Source of the DNA: a virus
Lineage: Duplodnaviria > Heunggongvirae > Uroviricota > Caudoviricetes
DNA: 35,389 bases
Direction: 5' to 3' (one strand)
IMG/VR virus record: IMGVR_UViG_2563367158_000001
Shown here: positions 3,517 through 29,656 of the stretch, piece by piece
Layout: the number at the start of each line of letters is the position of its first letter
Position numbering within the stretch: position 1 is the stretch's first letter
Position numbers and translations under genes: made by a program
The notes under the pieces: model-generated
Database searches by the model: none
Told to the model about the DNA's origin: nothing
What the model saw: only the letters and a program-made list of their open reading frames with translations

Positions 3517-4043
3517 TTGCGTAACTCCGATAACTCGTTAAAACGTTCCATAAACATCCCGTAGGCATGGCCTGGCGACAGTGGAATAACTTTGAACATC
3601 TCTGTTGCTGGGATACCTTCCAGTAGAGGCCAGAAAGAGCCATCATCAAGCCCGAGATCGCGGCGTTCGGTTGCCAGCATGATGAGATCGGCATATTTCA
3701 CGGGCGTGCTCATAACCGGGGGTAACCCGTATTTCTCACGGATTACGGCGTCTATTTTTTCTTCCATCCGTTTATAGTCAGGAAGAAGGCGTTTCAGTTG
3801 CGCGGGGATGTCCTGACAATACGCTTCTGTTGCATCATGCATTAACGCTTCAAAGGCGAACTCTGGCGCCACAAGTTGACTGCACAGAACGGAATGCTGC
3901 GCCACGCTGTAAAAATCCGGCAAGTGTCCCGCGAAGCGGCAGATATTTGAAAGCGCACCGGCGATATCCTCGATATAAATATCGTCAATGGTGGAGTTGA
4001 TATAATTGAACTTCTTACCGGTAAGAGTCTGGATAAAACTCAT
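3507..4043 (-). CDS. HD-domain phosphohydrolase (5'-deoxynucleotidase-like)
   Basis: 178-aa ORF with H...HD metal-binding motif (AQHSV ... MHDATEAY) characteristic of the HD superfamily; AGGAG-like RBS upstream. Confidence 0.75.
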   Translation of the reverse strand: MSFIQTLTGKKFNYINSTIDDIYIEDIAGALSNICRFAGHLPDFYSVAQHSVLCSQLVAPEFAFEALMHDATEAYCQDIPAQLKRLLPDYKRMEEKIDAVIREKYGLPPVMSTPVKYADLIMLATERRDLGLDDGSFWPLLEGIPATEMFKVIPLSPGHAYGMFMERFNELSELRKCA

Positions 4044-4465: not shown

Positions 4466-5062
4466 TTAATGATTGTCGTAATAATTAATTGGCTCATCAT
4501 TTTTTTGGTCTGGCATAGTTATGGACCACTTTATATTCTTTAGGCTGTTATGTTTTTTATTGACCTTAAGCTCTCTCTTTGCTTCAGAGATAATATCGTC
4601 TAGTAATACTTTTAATTTATCAAGTCTTGACTTGTGGGCATCTATCAACTCTATACTATCAAACTCCCATTGTATAAATAGATTTTCTTCATTTTCAATG
4701 AATGAACGGATTTTATCCCCACACTCTTCTGTTAAGAATAATGAAGATAGCTCACCTATTCTACTGAGTTTTTCAAGCTCATTAGAGAAAGATTTGCTAA
4801 GGATTTCATTTTCTTCTTTTGATTTGTAACTAAAGTAGGTTGGGAATTGTGAAGCGTGATGTAACTCATGTTTATACCAATAGTCAGCTGTGTTTTTTAG
4901 AAGATAAACACAGTCAACTAATTGCGTATACAAATCTATTCTTTTGTCCCACCATTTTTCTTTATAATAACGGCCGAGTGCATATCGCGCAGTTAAGTAA
5001 GCTGCGATTGAGCCTGTAACAAGTCCGATAATTACCTTTGATATAAGGTCATGCCAATCCAT
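4466..5062 (-). CDS. hypothetical single-pass membrane protein in an AT-rich insertion; candidate exclusion or abortive-infection factor
   Basis: 198-aa ORF; N-terminal hydrophobic helix (IIGLVTGSIAAYLTARYAL) then an aromatic- and Lys/Glu-rich domain; about 30% GC by eye; own terminator; AT-rich leader upstream. Confidence 0.7.
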   Translation of the reverse strand: MDWHDLISKVIIGLVTGSIAAYLTARYALGRYYKEKWWDKRIDLYTQLVDCVYLLKNTADYWYKHELHHASQFPTYFSYKSKEENEILSKSFSNELEKLSRIGELSSLFLTEECGDKIRSFIENEENLFIQWEFDSIELIDAHKSRLDKLKVLLDDIISEAKRELKVNKKHNSLKNIKWSITMPDQKNDEPINYYDNH

Positions 5063-5479
5063 TTTTATTTTTCCTACATTATGTTATATAATTGTTCATA
5101 TCATACAATTGTTGAGTATAGATGTCTCGTTATTCATCAACATTTACTCCTGTTAAATTAGGGGGAGTATGTATTAAAAATATTCATCTGGGTCGTCTAA
5201 ATATTTTTGATAAACTAATAGCAATAACACTATCAATATTGCCTGCCCTCACGTCGTTCTTGCTCTCGCGCGATTTTTAACTAAACACTAGCAGGATTTA
5301 TCATGGTGCTACGCTACATTTACTTGTAGGGAGCTAAACAGATCATTGACGCTGAAAATATTCAAATTGTTAAAGAGCGAAGCGTCCTATGGGCGTTTTG
5401 TTGCTAACGAATCATCTTGGACTTCATATGCCCCAGGCGGCTACTTCGTGGACGTCCTGCCTGTTTGTTGTTTCTCTTG

Positions 5480-5513
5480 GGTACATTATGTATCTCAAAG
5501 GTACATTGTCAAG
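5480..5513. promoter_or_regulatory. OL-like operator repeats (two GGTACA sites 20 bp apart)
   Basis: GGTACATTATGTAT and GGTACATTGTCAAG resemble GGTACATATTGTAT and the TGTACC/GGTACA palindromes in the cI-cro intergenic region. Confidence 0.4.
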
Positions 5514-11075: not shown

Positions 11076-12071
11076 GTGACCGTGAGAGCACTACTGACCC
11101 CTGAAATTGCCCCGCGTATGGGGATCGTATTGTTCAGACCAGGTTCAGAGCTGATGCCCCTGTTTATGCAGGGGCGTGTCCTGCTGGAGCCTGAGCCGGA
11201 ACGTTATTCATCTTTCGCCAGTGGTGCTGTTCCGGCGGCATCACAACCGCTGGCGGATGATCCTGACGTTCGGGCCGTGTTCCGCAATGAGGCAGTGATC
11301 CGTCGTGCTGGTGGCGTGGAATGTCTTGAAAGCTGGTTACTTCGTGAAAAAGGCTGCCAGTGGCCTCATTCCGACTGGCACAGCGAGAATATGACAACAA
11401 TGCGACACGCGCCGGGCGCAATCCGTCTGTGCTGGCACTGCGATAACCAGCTGCGCGATCAGTTCACGGAACGGCTGGAATCAATGGCAACGGATAACTG
11501 TGCCCGCTGGGTGTTGTCTGTTGTGCGTCGGGATCTCGGTTTTGATGATAGTCACGTTGTGACAATGCCGGAACTGTGCTGGTGGCTGATTCGTAATGAC
11601 CTGGCGGATGCCTTACCGGAAAGTGCAGCCCGTAAGGCACTGAGATTACCGAAGCCTGTTGTGCCGTCTGTCACCCGGGAAAGTGACCTTGTGCCTTCGG
11701 TTCCTGCCACCAGCATCATCCAGGATAAGGTGAAAAAGGTGCTGGCGCTGAAAGTGGATCCGGAGTCGCCGGAGTCTTTTATGTTACGCCCAAAACGTCG
11801 CCGCTGGGTTAATGAAAAGTACACACGCTGGGTTAAGACACAGCCGTGTGCATGTTGTGGAAAGCCTGCTGATGATCCCCACCACCTGATAGGCCACGGT
11901 CAGGGGGGAATGGGTACAAAAGCGCATGACCTCTTTGTGTTGCCTTTGTGCAGAAAGCATCACGACGAGCTGCATGCGGATACCGTGGCATTTGAAGAGA
12001 AGTATGGTTCCCAGCTGGAGCTGATATTTCGTTTTATCGATCGTGCGCTGGCAATAGGCGTACTGGCGTAA
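11076..12071 (+). CDS. DUF968-family protein (YdfU-like, HNH-like Cys/His motif)
   Basis: 331-aa ORF with GTG start; C-terminal CACCGKPADDPHHLIGHGQGGMGTKAHDLFVLPLCRKHHDELH. Confidence 0.6.
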   Translation: MTVRALLTPEIAPRMGIVLFRPGSELMPLFMQGRVLLEPEPERYSSFASGAVPAASQPLADDPDVRAVFRNEAVIRRAGGVECLESWLLREKGCQWPHSDWHSENMTTMRHAPGAIRLCWHCDNQLRDQFTERLESMATDNCARWVLSVVRRDLGFDDSHVVTMPELCWWLIRNDLADALPESAARKALRLPKPVVPSVTRESDLVPSVPATSIIQDKVKKVLALKVDPESPESFMLRPKRRRWVNEKYTRWVKTQPCACCGKPADDPHHLIGHGQGGMGTKAHDLFVLPLCRKHHDELHADTVAFEEKYGSQLELIFRFIDRALAIGVLA

Positions 12072-12084
12072 GTGGAGAACGAGC

Positions 12085-12837
12085 ATGAACCTTGAAGCCT
12101 TACCGAAATATTACTCCCCGAAATCTCCAAAACTGAGCGATGACGCACCGGCGACAGGCTCTGGTGGTTTAACGATTACGGATGTGATGGCTGCGCAGGG
12201 GATGGTGCAGTCGAAAGCACCGCTTGGGTTTGCCTTATTCCTGGCAAAAGTTGGTGTTCAGGATCCTCAGTTTGCGATTGAAGGTCTGCTCAATTACGCG
12301 ATGGCACTGGATAACCCGACATTGAATAAATTGAGTGAAGAAACCCGGCTACAGATCATTCCTTACCTTGTGAATTTTGCCTTTGCTGATTATTCCAGGT
12401 CTGCGGCAAGTAAGGCTCGCTGTGAGCATTGTGCTGGTACTGGATTTCATAATGTATTGCGCGAGGTGGTGAAACACTCCAGAAGCGGGGAATCTGTTAT
12501 CAAGGAAGAGTGGGTGAAGGAACTATGTCAGCATTGTCATGGTAAGGGAGAAGTCAGCACAGCGTGCAGAGGGTGTAAGGGTAAAGGTATTGTCCTGGAT
12601 GAAAAAAGGACCCGGCTTCATGGCACGCCTGTTTATAAGATTTGTGGGCGTTGCAATGGAAACCGGTTTAGCCGTTTACCAACTACACTGGCACGACGTC
12701 ATGTCCAGAAGCTGGTTCCAGACCTGACTGATTATCAGTGGTACAAAGGATATGCAGACGTAATTGATAAACTAGTAACAAAGTGCTGGCAGGAAGAAGC
12801 ATATGCTGAAACGCAATTGAGAAAGGTGACGAGATAA
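12085..12837 (+). CDS. late-gene antitermination protein Q
   Basis: 250-aa ORF with CxxC zinc-binding motifs (CEHCAGTG, CQHCHGKG, CRGCKGKG, CGRCNGN); directly upstream of a terminator and the lysis cassette. Confidence 0.7.
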   Translation: MNLEALPKYYSPKSPKLSDDAPATGSGGLTITDVMAAQGMVQSKAPLGFALFLAKVGVQDPQFAIEGLLNYAMALDNPTLNKLSEETRLQIIPYLVNFAFADYSRSAASKARCEHCAGTGFHNVLREVVKHSRSGESVIKEEWVKELCQHCHGKGEVSTACRGCKGKGIVLDEKRTRLHGTPVYKICGRCNGNRFSRLPTTLARRHVQKLVPDLTDYQWYKGYADVIDKLVTKCWQEEAYAETQLRKVTR

Positions 12838-12944
12838 GTGATTTTCGCCGAAGATGGCGACATGAAGCTTGCATTTTTCAAAAAATATGGATAAGATTTT
12901 CTCAACGATGGGCTTTGTATGTCTGCCGTTGATAATTTTCACGA

Positions 12945-12970: not shown

Positions 12971-13022
12971 ACTTGTACTGAAACACATTATATAACCTCA
13001 TATCAGTTAAAAAGGAGGTTGT

Positions 13023-13358
13023 ATGATTAATGCCGTTGAGTACAGATTACCGTTAGGAAATATCTCTCCAGAGAATCTTGACGCGTTGTCAGAGCTTATC
13101 GTTAAGCATTCCGATAAATTTAATAACTATGTACTTAGTTCTATTTCTGATGATGATATTCGATATTCTTACGATTACTACAATTTTGAAATCACAGAGA
13201 TAGATGAATATGGGTTTCACTTTATAGCACCATATAGCTATTATGAAGGATGCGTTGACAATAACTTCTCAGGAGAGGTTGAAGGTTATGCAGAATACGA
13301 AATCATTGATAATGAATTAGTCTTCTCTCTTGAGGAACTACCTTGGGATGTAAAATAA
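13023..13358 (+). CDS. hypothetical small acidic protein (AT-rich insertion between Q and holin)
   Basis: 111-aa ORF, very Asp/Glu/Tyr-rich; strong RBS AAGGAGGTTGTATG; about 33% GC by eye; followed by its own terminator. Confidence 0.6.
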   Translation: MINAVEYRLPLGNISPENLDALSELIVKHSDKFNNYVLSSISDDDIRYSYDYYNFEITEIDEYGFHFIAPYSYYEGCVDNNFSGEVEGYAEYEIIDNELVFSLEELPWDVK

Positions 13359-13366
13359 ATATCAAT

Positions 13367-13400
13367 AATAAAGGCCGTAACGAACGGCCTTTATTATTAT
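13367..13400 (+). terminator. rho-independent terminator
   Basis: Perfect 11-bp stem AATAAAGGCCG / CGGCCTTTATT with a 7-nt loop, followed by ATTAT. Confidence 0.65.
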
Positions 13401-13509
13401 AAAATCATCAATGCCTGATGAATTAGAATGTAATTTTCGAATTAATAATAAATCAACATATCATTTCACGCTCCGATTTTCTGTCGGAGGCGAAACTGCG
13501 GCTATTCAT

Positions 13510-25670: not shown

Positions 25671-25819
25671 CGGCTGAATACCTCACTGATCGCTTCTTTG
25701 ACTGCGCCAGTTACTGGCGCATTAATCCCTTCGAATTGCTGAATATGCCGATCAGTGAAATTCCCTTGCTGGTCAGTCAGGCAAACAGGATAGAGCAGGA
25801 GAAACGCACACATGGCTGA
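25657..25819 (+). CDS. frameshift extension of the tail assembly chaperone (long form, C-terminal part)
   Basis: -1 frame ORF continuing to just before the tape-measure start; analogous to lambda G/GT. Confidence 0.65.
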
Positions 25820-27644
25820 ATTTGAGCTTAAGGCGTTGATCACCGGTGTCGACAGACTTTCTCCCGCGCTGTCGAAAATGCAAAAGAAAATCCGGGGATT
25901 TAAACGCCAGGCGGAAGAAGCATCACAGGGTGGGCTGGCGCTTGGTGGCGGACTGGCAGCGGGTCTGACGCTTTCCCTGAAATCTTATGCCGATCAGGAA
26001 AACGCCGCCACCGGGCTGAAAGTCGCCATGATGGATGCGAACGGCGAGGTCGGAAAGAGCTTTCAGGACATCAATAAACTGGCTATTGGCCTGGGTAACC
26101 AGCTACCCGGTACAACGGCTGATTTCCAGAACATGATGCAGATGCTGGTGCGTCAGGGGATCCCGGCAGAAAATATTCTTGGCGGTGTGGGTAAAGCGAC
26201 AGCTTATCTTGCGGTACAACTGAAAAAAACACCGGAAGCGGCTGCTGAGTTTGCTGCAAAGATGCAGGATGCTACCGGAACGGCGTCAGAAGACATGATG
26301 GGGCTGTTCGACACTATCCAGAAAGCGTTTTATCTGGGCGTTGACGATACCAACATGTTGTCCTTCTTCACTAAAACCAGTTATGTTCTGAAGATGGTGA
26401 ACAAGGACGGTCTTCAGGCTGCACAGAGCCTTGCCCCCATCAGCGTCATGATGGATCAGATGGGGATGAACGGGGAGTCGGCAGGTAATGCCCTGCGAAA
26501 AGTTATCCAGTCCGGATTAAGCGTTAAGAAAATCAGGGACGTCAATAAAGTTATGGCCCGTCAGAAACTCGGGGTACAGCTCGATTTTACTGACGGCAAA
26601 GGAAGTTTTGGCGGTCTTGATAACATGTTTAAGCAACTGGCAAAGCTGCGAAAACTTACCGACGTTAAGCGAACAGGTGTACTTAAGGCAATATTTGGTG
26701 ATGATGCCGAAACCCTTCAGGTGGTCAATGCGCTGATCGATAAAGGAAAGGATGGTTACGATCAGATCCAGCAAAAGATGAATAAACAGGCCAGCCTGAA
26801 TAAACGTGTTCAGGCACAGCTTGGTACGCTGTCCAACCTGTGGGAGGCAATGACGGGGACCGCAACTAACGGCCTTGCGGCTATTGGCGGCGCATTTTCT
26901 GGTGACGCCAAAAATATCACGCAATGGCTGGGGGAGTTGGGGGAAAAATTCACGAAGTTTGCGGATGAAAATCCCCGGGTTATTCGCGGCGTCGTCGGGC
27001 TTGCTGCCGGTCTTGCGATTCTGAAACTGGGATTGATGGGCGTGGGCAGTGCCATCAGCATTGTCAGCAGGATCATGTCGATGACGCCGATTGGCATGAT
27101 TGCGACGGCGATAGCCCTGGCTGCGGGATTAATTATCACTAACTGGGATGTTGTCGGACCTTATTTCAAGAAGCTCTGGGAAACCATTGGTCCTTATTTT
27201 GAGGCTGGCTGGGAACTCCTTAAGAAAGTTTTTGCCTGGTCGCCGATGGGGATGGTGATCAATAACTGGGGGCCGGTTGTTAAGTGGTTTCAGGATATGT
27301 GGGACAAGCTGAAGCCAATTATTGAGTGGTTTACCGACAGTTCCGGTGACACGGTCGATGCCATTAACTCTGCGCAGTGGGGCGCGGGTGCTTATGATGC
27401 TTATGGGACGGGAATACCGGCACGGGGATACACTCCTTATCCGGCGGTGGATCCGGCTCAGGCAAACAACGCCTCCGATGCCACAGGCTCGAATCCCTTC
27501 ATGATTAATAAAGCTACCGCGCCAAAAGTTGATGGTGAGATCAAGGTATCATTTATAAATATGCCACCAGGTATGCGGGTTACGGAAACACGCTCCAGTG
27601 GCATTGATATAAATCACGATGTTGGCTATACCCGATTTTGGTAG
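25812..27644 (+). CDS. tail tape measure protein
   Basis: 610-aa ORF, Ala/Gly/Met-rich and helical with hydrophobic C-terminal segments; follows the frameshifted chaperone. Confidence 0.9.
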   Translation: MAEFELKALITGVDRLSPALSKMQKKIRGFKRQAEEASQGGLALGGGLAAGLTLSLKSYADQENAATGLKVAMMDANGEVGKSFQDINKLAIGLGNQLPGTTADFQNMMQMLVRQGIPAENILGGVGKATAYLAVQLKKTPEAAAEFAAKMQDATGTASEDMMGLFDTIQKAFYLGVDDTNMLSFFTKTSYVLKMVNKDGLQAAQSLAPISVMMDQMGMNGESAGNALRKVIQSGLSVKKIRDVNKVMARQKLGVQLDFTDGKGSFGGLDNMFKQLAKLRKLTDVKRTGVLKAIFGDDAETLQVVNALIDKGKDGYDQIQQKMNKQASLNKRVQAQLGTLSNLWEAMTGTATNGLAAIGGAFSGDAKNITQWLGELGEKFTKFADENPRVIRGVVGLAAGLAILKLGLMGVGSAISIVSRIMSMTPIGMIATAIALAAGLIITNWDVVGPYFKKLWETIGPYFEAGWELLKKVFAWSPMGMVINNWGPVVKWFQDMWDKLKPIIEWFTDSSGDTVDAINSAQWGAGAYDAYGTGIPARGYTPYPAVDPAQANNASDATGSNPFMINKATAPKVDGEIKVSFINMPPGMRVTETRSSGIDINHDVGYTRFW

Positions 27645-27672
27645 CCAGGATTCCCCTCACATGTATTGCTGG

Positions 27673-27700
27673 TTGTAAGTCATAAATAGAGTGATAGAAT
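27673..27700 (+). promoter_or_regulatory. candidate sigma70 promoter for the tail-module insertion
   Basis: TTGTAA-N16-TAGAAT located 36 nt upstream of the ATG at 27736. Confidence 0.4.
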
Positions 27701-27735
27701 TAATGCACATTTAGAAAAATGTTAATAGGCGAAAA

Positions 27736-28266
27736 ATGAAAGGCTATATCACAGCAAGTGTAATTCTTGGAGCAGCGGCTATTTTTTCATCTCTCATAAT
27801 CTCTGGCAACATCTCCTTTAAAGATGAACATATTATTCAGTTATCTGGAGGAGCCATAAAACTTGGTGATGTTTATAAAGAAAATAAATTAATAAGTGCA
27901 AAGATTATTTTTCCAGATAATCAGGGTGAACAGATTCTTGTTGTCGACGGCAATCCTGAAAACTTTAAGGAGGATTTTCAGGAGAAATTAAATAAAGTAA
28001 TAAAAACTTTAAATGCGTCAAAGAAAAAAGATGAAGAGAAAGTTAGCCTGGATAATTTAAGTGTTATTGAAGAGTCTAAACTAGAGCTCGTTTCTGCGGT
28101 GCGTTACTCTGCTCAGTATGTTCCTATGTTTACTCTGACGCTGGACAAAAAAGAAATTACCATGCCTAAAAATACGGTAATATTTCCATTTGCCAGCGAT
28201 GAAACAGCTAAGTATTTAAATGAACAACAGCAAAAGTATAAAGATTCGTTGTTTCTGACTCGCTAA
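27736..28266 (+). CDS. hypothetical signal-anchored / secreted protein (AT-rich insertion inside tail module)
   Basis: 176-aa ORF; N-terminal hydrophobic segment (ITASVILGAAAIFSSLIISG) then a Lys/Glu-rich domain; about 28% GC by eye; candidate promoter and strong terminator. Confidence 0.65.
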   Translation: MKGYITASVILGAAAIFSSLIISGNISFKDEHIIQLSGGAIKLGDVYKENKLISAKIIFPDNQGEQILVVDGNPENFKEDFQEKLNKVIKTLNASKKKDEEKVSLDNLSVIEESKLELVSAVRYSAQYVPMFTLTLDKKEITMPKNTVIFPFASDETAKYLNEQQQKYKDSLFLTR

Positions 28267-28286
28267 TTAATAAAATTCATTACAAG

Positions 28287-28316
28287 GCCACCTTCTAATA
28301 GGTGGCTTTTTTATTT
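28287..28316 (+). terminator. rho-independent terminator
   Basis: GCCACCT-TCTAAT-AGGTGGC hairpin followed by TTTTTTATTTT. Confidence 0.7.
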
Positions 28317-28327
28317 TCGGAGTGTAT

Positions 28328-29656
28328 ATGACGTGGAAAGACAGGCTTCAGGATGCGTCATTTCGAGGTGTGCCGTTTAAGGTTGAAGAAGAAAGTGCGG
28401 GAACTGGTCGCCGTGTGGAAACACATGAATACCCGAACCGCGACAAGCCCTATACCGAAGATCTGGGAAAAGTCACTTTCCGCCCGTCCATCACAGCTTA
28501 TGTGGTGGGAGATGACTGCTTTGACCAGCGCGATCGCCTGATTGAAGCGCTGAATAAACCCGGTCCCGGCACGCTTGTCCACCCGACATATGGTGAGCTG
28601 AAAGTCTGTGTTGACGGGGAAGTTCGGGTCAGCACATCGAAAAGTGAAGGGCGTATTGTCCGCTTTGACCTGAAGTTTGTCGAAGCAGGAGAACTCTCTT
28701 ACCCCACATCAGGTGCGGCGACGGCGCAGACGCTGATGTCATCCTGTTCTGCACTGGATGACTGCATCAGTGACAGCTTCAGCGGTTTCAGTATCGATGG
28801 TGTGGCGGATTTCGTGCAGAACGACGTTATCGGTAATGCCAGCATAATGCTGGGGTATGTTTCTGATGCGATGAAAGTGGTGGATTCTGCCGTATCGGAT
28901 GCCGCCAGGCTGTTGCAGGGGGATATCTCGGTACTTCTGCCGCCGCCATCGTCAGGCAAAAATTTCGTTGAGCAGGTGCAGAAAATGTGGCGTACCGGGA
29001 AACGCCTTTATGGTAACGCCAGCGACCTGGTCACCATGATCAAAACGCTTTCCGGTGTCAGCCTCGGCAGCGATCTGCAACCGCGCGGCGTCTGGAAAAC
29101 GGACAGTAAAACCACCGCCACGGCTACGCAGCAGCGTAATGTGGTTGCCAGCACCCTTCGTACGACCGCAATCAGCGAAGCGGCGTATGCCATCACCCGA
29201 TTGCCTGCGCCAACAACTTCCGCGGTGATGCAGAATTCCGCAGTGGGGCAGGCAACAACACCTGCGCAGAGCACTGGCTGGCCTTCCGTCACGCATCCGG
29301 CACTGAACAATGCACCGGCGGTGAAAAACACGGTTGACCTGCCGACGTGGGAAGAACTGACTGACATTCGCGACACACTGAATACGACAATTGATAAGGA
29401 GTTGTCCCGTACAACCAGTGATGCGCTGTTTCTGGCGCTGCGCCGGGTGAAAGCAGATCTGAATGCGGATATCAACACGCGCCTTGAACAGTCTGCACGG
29501 ATCATTCAGCGCACACCGGATGAGGTTTTACCCGCGCTGGTGCTGGCGGCGACCTGGTTTGATAACGCGGCGCGTGACGCGGACATTATCCGGCGTAATG
29601 CCATTACGCATCCCGGCTTTGTGCCGGTGATCCCTCTGAAGGTGCCAGTGCAATGA
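28328..29656 (+). CDS. DNA circularisation protein (Mu N-like tail protein)
   Basis: About 442-aa product starting MTWKDRLQDASFRGVPFKVEEESAGTGRRVETHEYPNRD, typical of the Mu N family; CGGAG RBS 6 nt upstream. Confidence 0.8.
   Translation: MTWKDRLQDASFRGVPFKVEEESAGTGRRVETHEYPNRDKPYTEDLGKVTFRPSITAYVVGDDCFDQRDRLIEALNKPGPGTLVHPTYGELKVCVDGEVRVSTSKSEGRIVRFDLKFVEAGELSYPTSGAATAQTLMSSCSALDDCISDSFSGFSIDGVADFVQNDVIGNASIMLGYVSDAMKVVDSAVSDAARLLQGDISVLLPPPSSGKNFVEQVQKMWRTGKRLYGNASDLVTMIKTLSGVSLGSDLQPRGVWKTDSKTTATATQQRNVVASTLRTTAISEAAYAITRLPAPTTSAVMQNSAVGQATTPAQSTGWPSVTHPALNNAPAVKNTVDLPTWEELTDIRDTLNTTIDKELSRTTSDALFLALRRVKADLNADINTRLEQSARIIQRTPDEVLPALVLAATWFDNAARDADIIRRNAITHPGFVPVIPLKVPVQ

What the first reader, a model, noticed from the sequence alone, without database searches (positions are those of the whole stretch)
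27650..28320. Insertion inside the tail module: signal-anchored Lys/Glu-rich protein with its own promoter and terminator between tape-measure and baseplate genes
A 176-aa ORF (27736..28266) in a roughly 0.6-kb AT-rich segment (about 28% GC in a sampled stretch) interrupts an otherwise tightly coupled Mu-like tail operon. It has a candidate sigma70 promoter (TTGTAA-N16-TAGAAT) and a strong intrinsic terminator. The product has an N-terminal hydrophobic segment (signal peptide or anchor, no lipobox Cys) and a charged extracytoplasmic domain. Lysogen-expressed envelope proteins at such sites (lom, cor-type genes) typically block receptors for superinfecting phage or alter host surface properties.
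Basis: partly seen in the sequence, partly recalled or inferred. Interest (0 to 1): 0.75.

Follow-up and report, generated by a model that had tools for sequence, protein, structure and literature searches.

The report
Prophage moron encoding membrane-anchored periplasmic protein
A 0.67-kb AT-rich accessory cassette sits at a swap-prone spot in the tail genes of an SfV-like E. coli prophage. It encodes an uncharacterised membrane-anchored periplasmic protein that is not a tail part and most plausibly protects the lysogen from other phages, which is untested.

Summary
ORF 27736..28266 (176 aa) lies in a 674-bp segment of 34% GC (GC3 29%) between the tape-measure gene and the Mu-N-like DNA-circularisation gene, whose GC is 51-56%. 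It has a promoter-like site and a strong terminator hairpin.

SfV, SfI and SfII lack the segment. Phage SKA5 carries an unrelated gene at the same site. Across Enterobacterales this junction is either about 40-60 bp with a terminator, or holds one of at least 8 unrelated small genes. Most of these encode envelope proteins, and one is annotated "Sie-like".

The protein belongs to an uncharacterised family (PHROG 5485; no Pfam, NCBIfam or PADLOC match). Each member has one N-terminal transmembrane helix and a confidently modelled alpha/beta domain (pLDDT 91.6) with no relative in the PDB. Members keep this tail position down to 30% identity. They also occur between Q and holin in a lambdoid prophage, in Pseudomonas islands, and as an orphan beside icd in Lelliottia. 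It is therefore mobile cargo, not a structural tail protein.

The most likely role is injection-stage superinfection exclusion, by analogy with HK97 gp15 and P22 SieA. This is inferred, not shown. It is a new member of a known kind, of moderate interest.

The parts
25812..27644 (+). Tail tape-measure gene; its stop codon marks the left edge of the hotspot
   Evidence: ORF list. Annotated 'phage tail tape measure protein' in NZ_CM142674, whose 676-bp insert is identical. About 97% identical to SfV orf14.
27645..28318 (+). Moron cassette. It replaces the ~45-bp terminator-only junction of SfV
   Evidence: Megablast to SfV, SfI and SfII covers 87% of the query in two pieces, with a record span 620 bp shorter. 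GC 34% against 51-56% in the flanks. The cassette is 99.4% identical in another E. coli prophage whose flanks are 97-98% identical.
27673..27700 (+). Sigma-70 promoter-like site, TTGTAA-N16-(TG)n-TAGAAT
   Evidence: 9 of 12 consensus matches with an extended -10 TG. The number of such sites in the region is at chance level. Promoter-like sites also lie upstream of homologues, but they are not conserved in sequence or position.
27736..28266 (+). Cargo gene X, 176 aa; member of PHROG 5485, an uncharacterised family
   Evidence: There are 78 cluster representatives, all about 175 aa.
27739..27804 (+). Residues 2-23: predicted transmembrane helix (signal-anchor)
   Evidence: AF2 helix 2-23. Hydropathy. 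Family-wide N-side net charge +1.0 against -0.6 on the C-side, and conservation equal to the core strands.
27832..28248 (+). Residues 33-171: predicted periplasmic alpha/beta domain. It holds the conserved G39/L43/G44/E49 motif and the Y124/L134 motif
28284..28317 (+). Intrinsic terminator: 10-bp stem, 6-nt loop, T-run
   Evidence: dG -15.6 kcal/mol, z -4.4. Sub-threshold Rfam leader matches here only reflect a terminator-like shape.
28328..29656 (+). Mu N-like DNA-circularisation gene (GGAG at 28319-28322); the right edge of the hotspot
   Evidence: Sequence, RefSeq annotation, and PF07157 in the orthologues.

Best explanation
Identity (high confidence, above 0.9). The segment 27645-28318 is a moron. 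It is a horizontally exchanged accessory cassette of promoter-like region, gene and terminator. It sits at a recombination hotspot between the tape-measure gene and gene N of an SfV-like prophage, which has an HK97-type head, a Mu-type contractile tail and is integrated at tRNA-Thr.

Product. The cassette encodes a bitopic protein. One N-terminal helix anchors it in the inner membrane. A roughly 140-residue alpha/beta domain of an uncharacterised family faces the periplasm. The topology is predicted, not measured.

Proposed function (inferred by analogy, not shown). The protein is made in the lysogen, and also by read-through during late transcription. It acts as a superinfection-exclusion factor at the genome-injection step. 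Its periplasmic domain, tethered to the inner membrane, would bind either the incoming tail tip or tape-measure conduit, or a host inner-membrane or periplasmic factor that the conduit needs. Phage DNA would then fail to cross the inner membrane while outer-membrane receptors stay intact.

Enzymatic activity is unlikely. The only near-invariant residues are G39, L43, G44, E49, Y124 and L134, which do not form a catalytic set.

The confidence given below refers to the functional claim.
For: Cargo, not structure. The segment is absent from SfV, SfI and SfII at 97% flank identity. Phage SKA5 has an unrelated signal-peptide gene in its place. Among 5426 complete E. coli genomes, 1096 carry the N gene, 531 have the empty junction, 179 have this cargo and 85 have the SKA5-type cargo. 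An OB-fold cargo also occurs.

Foreign composition. GC3 is 29% against 56-60% in the flanks. It stays at 29-38% in every homologue measured, against 46-66% in their flanking genes.

A real, constrained protein. There are 78 cluster representatives of constant length. The AF2 model reaches pLDDT 91.6 with the deep alignment.

Topology. There is a single hydrophobic segment. Charge bias gives N-in/C-out in 46 of 58 members. The position that would be -1 for signal peptidase is often I, V, Y, K or W. The TM segment is as conserved as the core strands. The only fold match is a phage lipoprotein, which is also an extracytoplasmic, membrane-tethered protein.

Hotspot content. Eight of nine distinct cargo genes at the same junction in other genera encode signal-peptide, lipoprotein or TM proteins, on either strand. 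The TM plus OB-fold cargo matches phrog_8545, 'superinfection exclusion Sie-like', at E 9e-41. It is transcribed antisense to the tail operon, so it must have its own promoter.

Autonomy. An intact orphan copy lies beside icd in Lelliottia. It has only a decayed remnant of the tape-measure 3' end upstream, an icd terminator before it and its own terminator after it.

Precedent. HK97 gp15 is a tail-operon moron next to the tape-measure gene with the same gene-terminator-SD layout. It inserts in the inner membrane and blocks genome entry in a tail-dependent way (PMC3594210). [quoted passage not shown]
Against: No experiment or homology links this family to exclusion. PADLOC gives no match, and the only significant PHROG matches are unknown-function families. 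There is no similarity to gp15 or to the Sie-like OB-fold cargo.

The promoter match is at chance frequency and is not conserved among homologues. The gene is co-oriented with the late operon, and no terminator lies between the tape-measure stop and its start. It could therefore be purely a late gene.

Guilt by association at a hotspot is weak evidence. One cargo there is a cytoplasmic bPH-domain protein. At 34% GC the gene may be silenced by H-NS in E. coli (general knowledge, not tested). The PHROG label 'Sie-like' is an annotation, not a tested function.
Confidence: 0.4

Rival explanations
1. Host-fitness (lysogenic conversion) factor unrelated to phage exclusion. A prophage-expressed envelope protein alters periplasmic or envelope physiology, for example stress, serum, bile or colicin tolerance, in the way lambda Bor does. 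It is retained because it benefits the bacterium.
For: An orphan copy is retained next to icd in Lelliottia after the rest of the prophage was lost. The family rides on several kinds of mobile element: tail module, Q-holin region and integrative islands. Morons with such roles are documented (PMC3594210). The gene is carried by E. coli from blood, urine, livestock, soil and water.
Against: No similarity to any known virulence or fitness family was found. There is no visible enrichment in a pathotype or niche. The persistent association with the tape-measure junction down to 30% identity, and the Sie-like neighbour allele, fit phage-phage conflict better.
Confidence: 0.2
2. Late-expressed phage accessory protein that serves the phage's own lytic cycle. 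It would be co-transcribed with the tail genes. It might prevent progeny from injecting into already infected or lysing cells (as T5 Llp or T4 Sp/Imm do), or it might modulate the envelope before lysis.
For: It has the same orientation as the late operon, and no terminator lies between the tape-measure stop codon and the gene. In Citrobacter a family member lies directly downstream of the Q antiterminator and upstream of the holin, a late-transcribed position. The position at the tape-measure/N junction is kept in E. coli, Leclercia, Edwardsiella and a 30%-identical homologue. The promoter evidence is weak.
Against: It is dispensable: SfV, SfI and SfII are viable phages without it. An orphan copy with no phage around it remains intact. 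Other cargo at the site is transcribed antisense to the late operon. This hypothesis overlaps with the best explanation, because exclusion could act both in lysogens and late in infection.
Confidence: 0.2
3. Membrane-acting abortive-infection or toxic effector. The single-pass protein would sense an incoming phage and disrupt the membrane, killing the cell.
For: Its architecture (one predicted TM helix, 176 aa) and carriage on mobile elements would be compatible with such a role. That small prophage-borne membrane proteins can act as abortive-infection effectors is general knowledge, not tested here.
Against: Most of the protein is a folded soluble domain predicted to lie outside the cytoplasm, where it could not sense intracellular infection cues. 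There is no partner gene in the cassette and no PADLOC match.
Confidence: 0.07
4. Structural tail component or tail-assembly factor of this phage lineage.
For: It lies inside the tail module and keeps that position in several genera.
Against: It is absent from about half of near-identical tail modules. Unrelated genes replace it, including antisense ones. It occurs outside any tail module. It has a membrane anchor and foreign codon usage.
Confidence: 0.03

Closest known systems
HK97 gp15 moron (Juhala et al. 2000; Cumby et al. 2012; summarised in PMC3594210)
   Same: Both are AT-rich accessory cassettes inside a tail operon, directly adjacent to the tape-measure gene. Both are absent from close relatives. 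In both, the gene is followed by a GC hairpin and T-run terminator placed immediately before the ribosome-binding site of the next tail gene. Both products have a single N-terminal TM segment.
   Different: There is no homology (hhalign probability 0.2%). gp15 is 62 aa with only a short tail beyond the TM segment, while this protein has a roughly 140-residue folded domain. gp15 lies upstream of the tape-measure gene in a siphovirus. This gene lies downstream of it in a contractile-tail phage. Exclusion is demonstrated for gp15 and only inferred here.
P22 SieA and similar inner-membrane injection blockers (PMC10883804)
   Same: A prophage-borne inner-membrane protein proposed to interfere with the periplasm-spanning DNA-delivery conduit. 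The family is fast-diverging.
   Different: No hit to any PHROG or Pfam Sie family. The genomic position differs. Function is untested here.
TM + OB-fold cargo (PF12869 tRNA_anti-like; phrog_8545 'superinfection exclusion Sie-like')
   Same: It occupies the identical tape-measure/N junction in E. coli and Scandinavium prophages. It has the same architecture of an N-terminal TM segment plus an extracytoplasmic domain of about 120-140 residues, and is also AT-rich.
   Different: The sequence and fold class are unrelated. It is encoded on the opposite strand.
Lambda Lom and phi80/N15/HK022 Cor
   Same: These are prophage-expressed envelope proteins encoded within tail regions as morons (PMC3594210).
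   Different: Lom is an outer-membrane beta-barrel and Cor inactivates the outer-membrane receptor FhuA. This protein has no Ail/Lom match, no lipobox and a predicted inner-membrane anchor.
'Lipoprotein' of Pseudomonas phage ventosus (BFVD A0A2H4P829)
   Same: It is the only significant fold match (Foldseek E 3.6e-6, TM-score 0.55/0.65). It is also a phage-encoded, membrane-tethered extracytoplasmic protein.
   Different: Sequence identity is 13%. It is tethered by a lipid anchor, not a TM helix. Its function is also unknown.

Membership tests
Moron (as defined in PMC3594210, after Juhala et al. 2000) | An extra gene present between two genes that are adjacent in closely related phages | tested here: met
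   SfV, SfI and SfII have a 45-60 bp junction in its place, with flanks about 97% identical.
Moron (as defined in PMC3594210, after Juhala et al. 2000) | Base composition different from the surrounding genes | tested here: met
   34% GC and GC3 29%, against 51-56% GC and GC3 56-60% in the flanks.
Moron (as defined in PMC3594210, after Juhala et al. 2000) | Own terminator | tested here: met
   Hairpin at 28284-28309 plus T-run, dG -15.6 kcal/mol, z -4.4. The empty junction also carries a terminator, with a different stem sequence.
Moron (as defined in PMC3594210, after Juhala et al. 2000) | Own promoter | tested here: inconclusive
   The site at 27673-27700 matches 9 of 12 positions with an extended -10, but such sites occur at chance frequency and it is not conserved among homologues. 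Indirect support comes from the intact orphan copy behind the icd terminator and the antisense cargo at the same site.
Moron (as defined in PMC3594210, after Juhala et al. 2000) | Expressed from the repressed prophage | not testable with these tools
   Requires RNA-seq, 5'-RACE or a reporter in a lysogen.
HK97 gp15 / YebO-like exclusion proteins | Sequence homology to gp15 | tested here: not met
   hhalign of family alignment A2 against gp15 gives probability 0.2%.
HK97 gp15 / YebO-like exclusion proteins | Inner-membrane insertion and a tail-dependent block of genome entry | not testable with these tools
   Only a TM helix and N-in/C-out charge bias are predicted.
Known superinfection-exclusion and defence families (PHROG Sie, Imm, Sp, Cor and Llp entries; PADLOC) | A profile match | tested here: not met
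   The only significant PHROG matches are phrog_5485 and phrog_34391, both of unknown function; a third match at E 0.014 (phrog_15137, endonuclease) is treated as chance. PADLOC gives none.
Lom/Ail outer-membrane proteins | Ail/Lom beta-barrel domain | tested here: not met
   No Pfam match at E up to 1. The model is alpha/beta with one TM helix.
Cor / Llp / Ltp-type exclusion lipoproteins | Lipobox cysteine after the signal sequence | tested here: not met
   The protein contains no cysteine. Of 58 family members, 39 have none.
PHROG 5485 | A full-length profile match | tested here: met
   E 3.8e-108, residues 1-176 of 176. The family carries no functional annotation.
Structural tail proteins of SfV/Mu-type tails | Present in all functional relatives and found only in tail modules | tested here: not met
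   Absent from SfV, SfI and SfII. Found in the Q-holin region, in islands and as an orphan.

The most novel reading that the evidence does not exclude
The tape-measure/N junction of SfV-type contractile-tail prophages may be a dedicated exclusion-cassette locus. Unrelated small envelope proteins would be swapped there as alleles. The PHROG-5485 family would be a previously unrecognised class of inner-membrane-anchored, periplasm-facing injection blockers with a new fold, acting on the tape-measure or tail-tip conduit of incoming phages. The low GC, persistent across lineages, would reflect circulation of these cassettes in a separate gene pool.
Probability: 0.25. Interest if true: 0.65.

Novelty: new member of a known kind. 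Interest (0 to 1): 0.45.

Why it matters
Tail-operon morons are known, and one (HK97 gp15) is a proven exclusion gene. This finding adds three things.

- It defines an uncharacterised protein family: 78 clusters at 50% identity, no Pfam, a confident model and no PDB neighbour.
- It shows that the junction hosting the gene is a cargo hotspot in a prophage type present in about 20% of complete E. coli genomes. About 15% of those tail modules carry this gene.
- It gives a short list of allelic envelope-protein cassettes that can be tested side by side.

If the family blocks genome injection, it would be a new handle on how contractile-tail temperate phages cross the periplasm. It would also be a determinant of phage susceptibility relevant to phage therapy and typing. 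If it does not, this remains an ordinary moron of unknown function.

Tried and rejected
- Sequence libraries. Pfam, NCBIfam and PADLOC scans of the protein gave nothing. A Pfam scan of all 58 family members gave only scattered single chance hits.
- Weak PHROG hit. The match to an endonuclease family (E 0.014) was treated as chance. The family has no conserved catalytic residues and no nuclease-like fold hit above noise.
- Deposited phages. tblastn against 50,697 deposited phage genomes found no match. The gene is seen only in prophages and metagenomes.
- Profile comparisons. hhalign against HK97 gp15, the OB-fold 'Sie-like' cargo, and the 180-aa ORF upstream of the Pseudomonas homologue showed no relationship.
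- RNA families. The Rfam scan of 27300-28600 gave only sub-threshold leader or terminator-like matches over the terminator.
- Promoter conservation. Aligning upstream regions of homologues revealed no conserved hexamers.
- Literature. Searches for the RefSeq accession and for moron, tape-measure, SfV and exclusion terms found no paper on this gene or this junction.
- Rejected readings. A structural tail protein, a lipoprotein, an outer-membrane barrel and a chance ORF were each rejected.

Full report
**1. What is in the sequence**

The window is a complete SfV-like prophage. A copy whose 676-bp insert and flanking layout match the window, in E. coli NZ_CM142674, is integrated at tRNA-Thr next to proA. 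It carries an HK97-type head module and a Mu-type contractile tail module.

Every tail gene from the sheath gene to the tail-fibre genes overlaps or abuts its neighbour. The exception is the stretch between the tape-measure gene (25812..27644) and the Mu-N-like DNA-circularisation gene (ATG 28328, preceded by GGAG). That gap holds the reported ORF, 27736..28266, 176 aa.

The 27645-28320 segment is 33.9% GC, with GC3 29%. The flanking genes are 51-56% GC, with GC3 56-60%.

A promoter-like site, TTGTAA-N16-TAGAAT with an upstream TG, lies at 27673..27700. A terminator hairpin lies at 28284..28309, followed by a T-run. Its folding energy is -15.6 kcal/mol, z -4.4 against shuffles. The promoter-like match is not more than chance would give, at 3 sites found against 3.6 expected.

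The product has one N-terminal hydrophobic stretch and no cysteine. The remainder is rich in Lys, Glu and Asp.

**2. It is an insertion at a hotspot**

SfV, SfI and SfII match the flanks at about 97% identity but span 620 bp less. In SfV the tape-measure stop is followed by about 45 bp that hold only a terminator hairpin, and then the same ribosome-binding site and N start. Phage SKA5 has a cassette of almost the same length at this point. It encodes an unrelated 170-aa signal-peptide protein, phrog_8976.

I fetched 14 related prophage loci from other Enterobacterales genera and examined the junction.
- In four loci the junction is 3-60 bp, usually just a hairpin terminator.
- In the other ten it is 290-630 bp of low GC (33-42%), carrying one small gene on either strand.

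The cargo genes found there are:
- SKA5-type secreted proteins;
- two lipoproteins;
- two different 66-aa double-TM proteins;
- a double-TM 145-aa protein;
- a TM plus OB-fold protein (PF12869);
- one cytoplasmic bPH-domain protein.

Counts in the 5426 complete E. coli genomes are as follows.

| Feature | Genomes |
|---|---|
| SfV-like N gene | 1096 (1232 places) |
| Empty SfV-type junction | 531 |
| This cassette (almost all at 99% identity or more) | 179 |
| SKA5-type cassette | 85 |
| OB-fold cassette | present, not counted |

The OB-fold cargo matches phrog_8545, annotated 'superinfection exclusion Sie-like', at E 9e-41. In E. coli it is encoded antisense to the tail operon, so it must be transcribed on its own.

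In one further E. coli prophage the cassette is 99.4% identical to the window. Its flanks are 98.0% and 97.1% identical. This fits cassette exchange by recombination in the conserved flanks.

**3. What the protein is**

It matches PHROG 5485 (unknown function) over its full length. It matches nothing in Pfam, NCBIfam or PADLOC. No deposited phage genome encodes it.

Close homologues at 52-58% identity occur in Leclercia, Lelliottia and metagenomes. A profile search of 1.8 billion cluster representatives finds 78 relatives. The full-length ones are about 175 aa. They include proteins from Edwardsiella, Citrobacter, Mangrovibacter and Pseudomonas, and every one is named 'hypothetical'. None of 58 members has a consistent Pfam hit.

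The family alignment shows one N-terminal hydrophobic segment and two conserved motifs. These are G39-x3-L43-G44-x4-E49, just after the membrane segment, and Y124...L134.

- Across the family the N-side of the hydrophobic segment carries net +1.0 and the C-side -0.6. This gives N-in/C-out in 46 of 58 members.
- There is no second hydrophobic segment.
- The would-be -1 position for signal peptidase is often bulky or charged.
- The segment is as conserved as the core strands.

I therefore read it as a retained inner-membrane anchor with a periplasmic domain. This is prediction, not measurement, and I could not run SignalP or DeepTMHMM.

**4. Where the family lives**

- The tape-measure/N position is kept in Leclercia (53% identity), Edwardsiella (41%) and a metagenomic prophage (30%).
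- In two of the prophages compared (L033, L035) the protein is more diverged (53-55% identity) than its neighbours. The hub protein is 82% identical (L033 only) and the tape measure 75-77%. Yet it keeps a GC3 of 29-38% everywhere.
- In Citrobacter a 31%-identical member lies between the Q antiterminator and the holin of a lambdoid prophage, the classical moron position.
- In Pseudomonas, 23%-identical members lie in small integrative islands next to a resolvase.
- In Lelliottia an intact copy sits alone downstream of icd. It lies behind the icd terminator, with only a decayed remnant of the tape-measure 3' end upstream and its own terminator downstream.

These contexts exclude a structural tail role. 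They show a self-contained, transferable gene.

**5. How it most likely works**

*Shown.* It is a moron cassette at a hotspot, and it encodes a conserved, foldable protein.

*Predicted.* It has an inner-membrane anchor and a periplasmic domain.

*Inferred.* It is an injection-stage superinfection-exclusion factor. The reasoning has four parts.
- The layout is the same as in the HK97 gp15 moron: a tail-operon moron beside the tape-measure gene, with a terminator placed directly before the next gene's ribosome-binding site. gp15 inserts in the inner membrane and blocks genome entry in a tail-dependent manner (PMC3594210).
[quoted passage not shown] The tape measure is now also known to be what a membrane-bound defence protein associates with at injection (PMC13190303).
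- Envelope proteins predominate at this junction, and one allele is labelled Sie-like.
- The conserved residues do not look catalytic, which points to binding and away from enzymatic activity.

I give this functional claim about 0.4. The rivals are:
- a host-fitness factor (0.2);
- a late-expressed phage accessory function (0.2), which partly overlaps with exclusion;
- an abortive-infection effector (0.07);
- a structural role (0.03).

The weakest links are three. There is no expression evidence. The promoter match is at chance level. There is no homology to any tested exclusion protein.

**6. Comparison with what is known, and verdict**

The cassette meets the compositional, positional and terminator criteria of a moron. 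The promoter criterion is inconclusive, and prophage expression cannot be tested here.

It is not a member of the gp15, Lom/Ail, lipoprotein (Cor, Llp, Ltp) or any PHROG or PADLOC exclusion family. The Lom/Cor receptor-blocking analogy fits poorly because the protein is predicted to be anchored in the inner membrane.

I found no paper describing this gene, its family or this junction as a hotspot. It is a new member of a known kind, with an uncharacterised family and a fold that has no PDB neighbour, and of moderate interest (0.45). The practical value is a concrete and cheap experiment: express this cassette and its allelic neighbours, then test phage entry.

Noticed in passing
window 28284-28317; L002 (SfV) about 2369-2393; L014, L027, L029 just upstream of position 4001: A GC-rich hairpin plus T-run lies immediately 5' of the ribosome-binding site of gene N in most SfV-like loci examined, including cargo-free ones (not the E. 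coli OB-fold cassette L046, nor the 3-bp junction of L020). The stem sequence differs between loci. A terminator in the middle of the late tail operon therefore looks like a property of the site. It may be a scar or a landing pad for cassettes, tolerated under Q antitermination.
   Followed up: partly
L005 10013-11808 (also L006-L008, L035): Leclercia-type relatives carry a further two-gene insertion between gene N and the baseplate hub gene. The products are 503-520 aa and 94 aa, with no Pfam match, and local GC falls to 0.39-0.48. This looks like a second cargo site in the same tail module.
   Followed up: no
L046 731-1177 (minus strand); L017: The alternative cargo at the same junction is a TM plus OB-fold protein (PF12869). 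It matches phrog_8545, 'superinfection exclusion Sie-like', at E 9e-41, and is encoded antisense to the tail operon. A bidirectional-looking hairpin lies right after the tape-measure stop.
   Followed up: partly
L032 2633-3570 (Lelliottia amnigena): An orphan copy of the family gene lies downstream of icd. Upstream is about 150 bp of degenerate tape-measure 3' end. No other phage genes are present. It appears to be the last surviving piece of a decayed prophage.
   Followed up: partly
L009 6634-8534; L013 6935-8531 (Pseudomonas islands): In two different integrative islands the distant family member lies next to a divergently oriented 188-189-aa resolvase/invertase gene. In L009 a 180-aa signal-peptide protein unrelated to the family sits between them.
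   Followed up: no
window 4501-5500 and 13001-13500: There are other low-GC patches (33-37% and 34%) in the immunity region and just upstream of the holin. The matching prophage in NZ_CM142674 annotates a minus-strand 'SDH family Clp fold serine proteinase' between Q and the holin, at about window 11849-12844. These may be further moron or defence cargo.
   Followed up: no
window 27707-27722: A 6-bp inverted repeat, ACATTT-N4-AAATGT, lies between the -10-like hexamer and the start codon of the cargo gene. It is short and AT-rich, so it is possibly chance.
   Followed up: no
window 27736-28266 and homologues in L005, L033, L035, L036, L038: GC3 stays at 29-38% in every lineage although the orthologues are only 30-56% identical, and their flanks have GC3 of 46-66%. 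The low GC has not ameliorated. This suggests a separate gene pool or selection for AT-richness, and it remains unexplained.
   Followed up: partly
window 28322 versus 28328: The mechanical ORF list starts gene N at GTG 28322. The GGAG at 28319-28322 and the RefSeq annotation indicate that ATG 28328 is the real start.
   Followed up: yes
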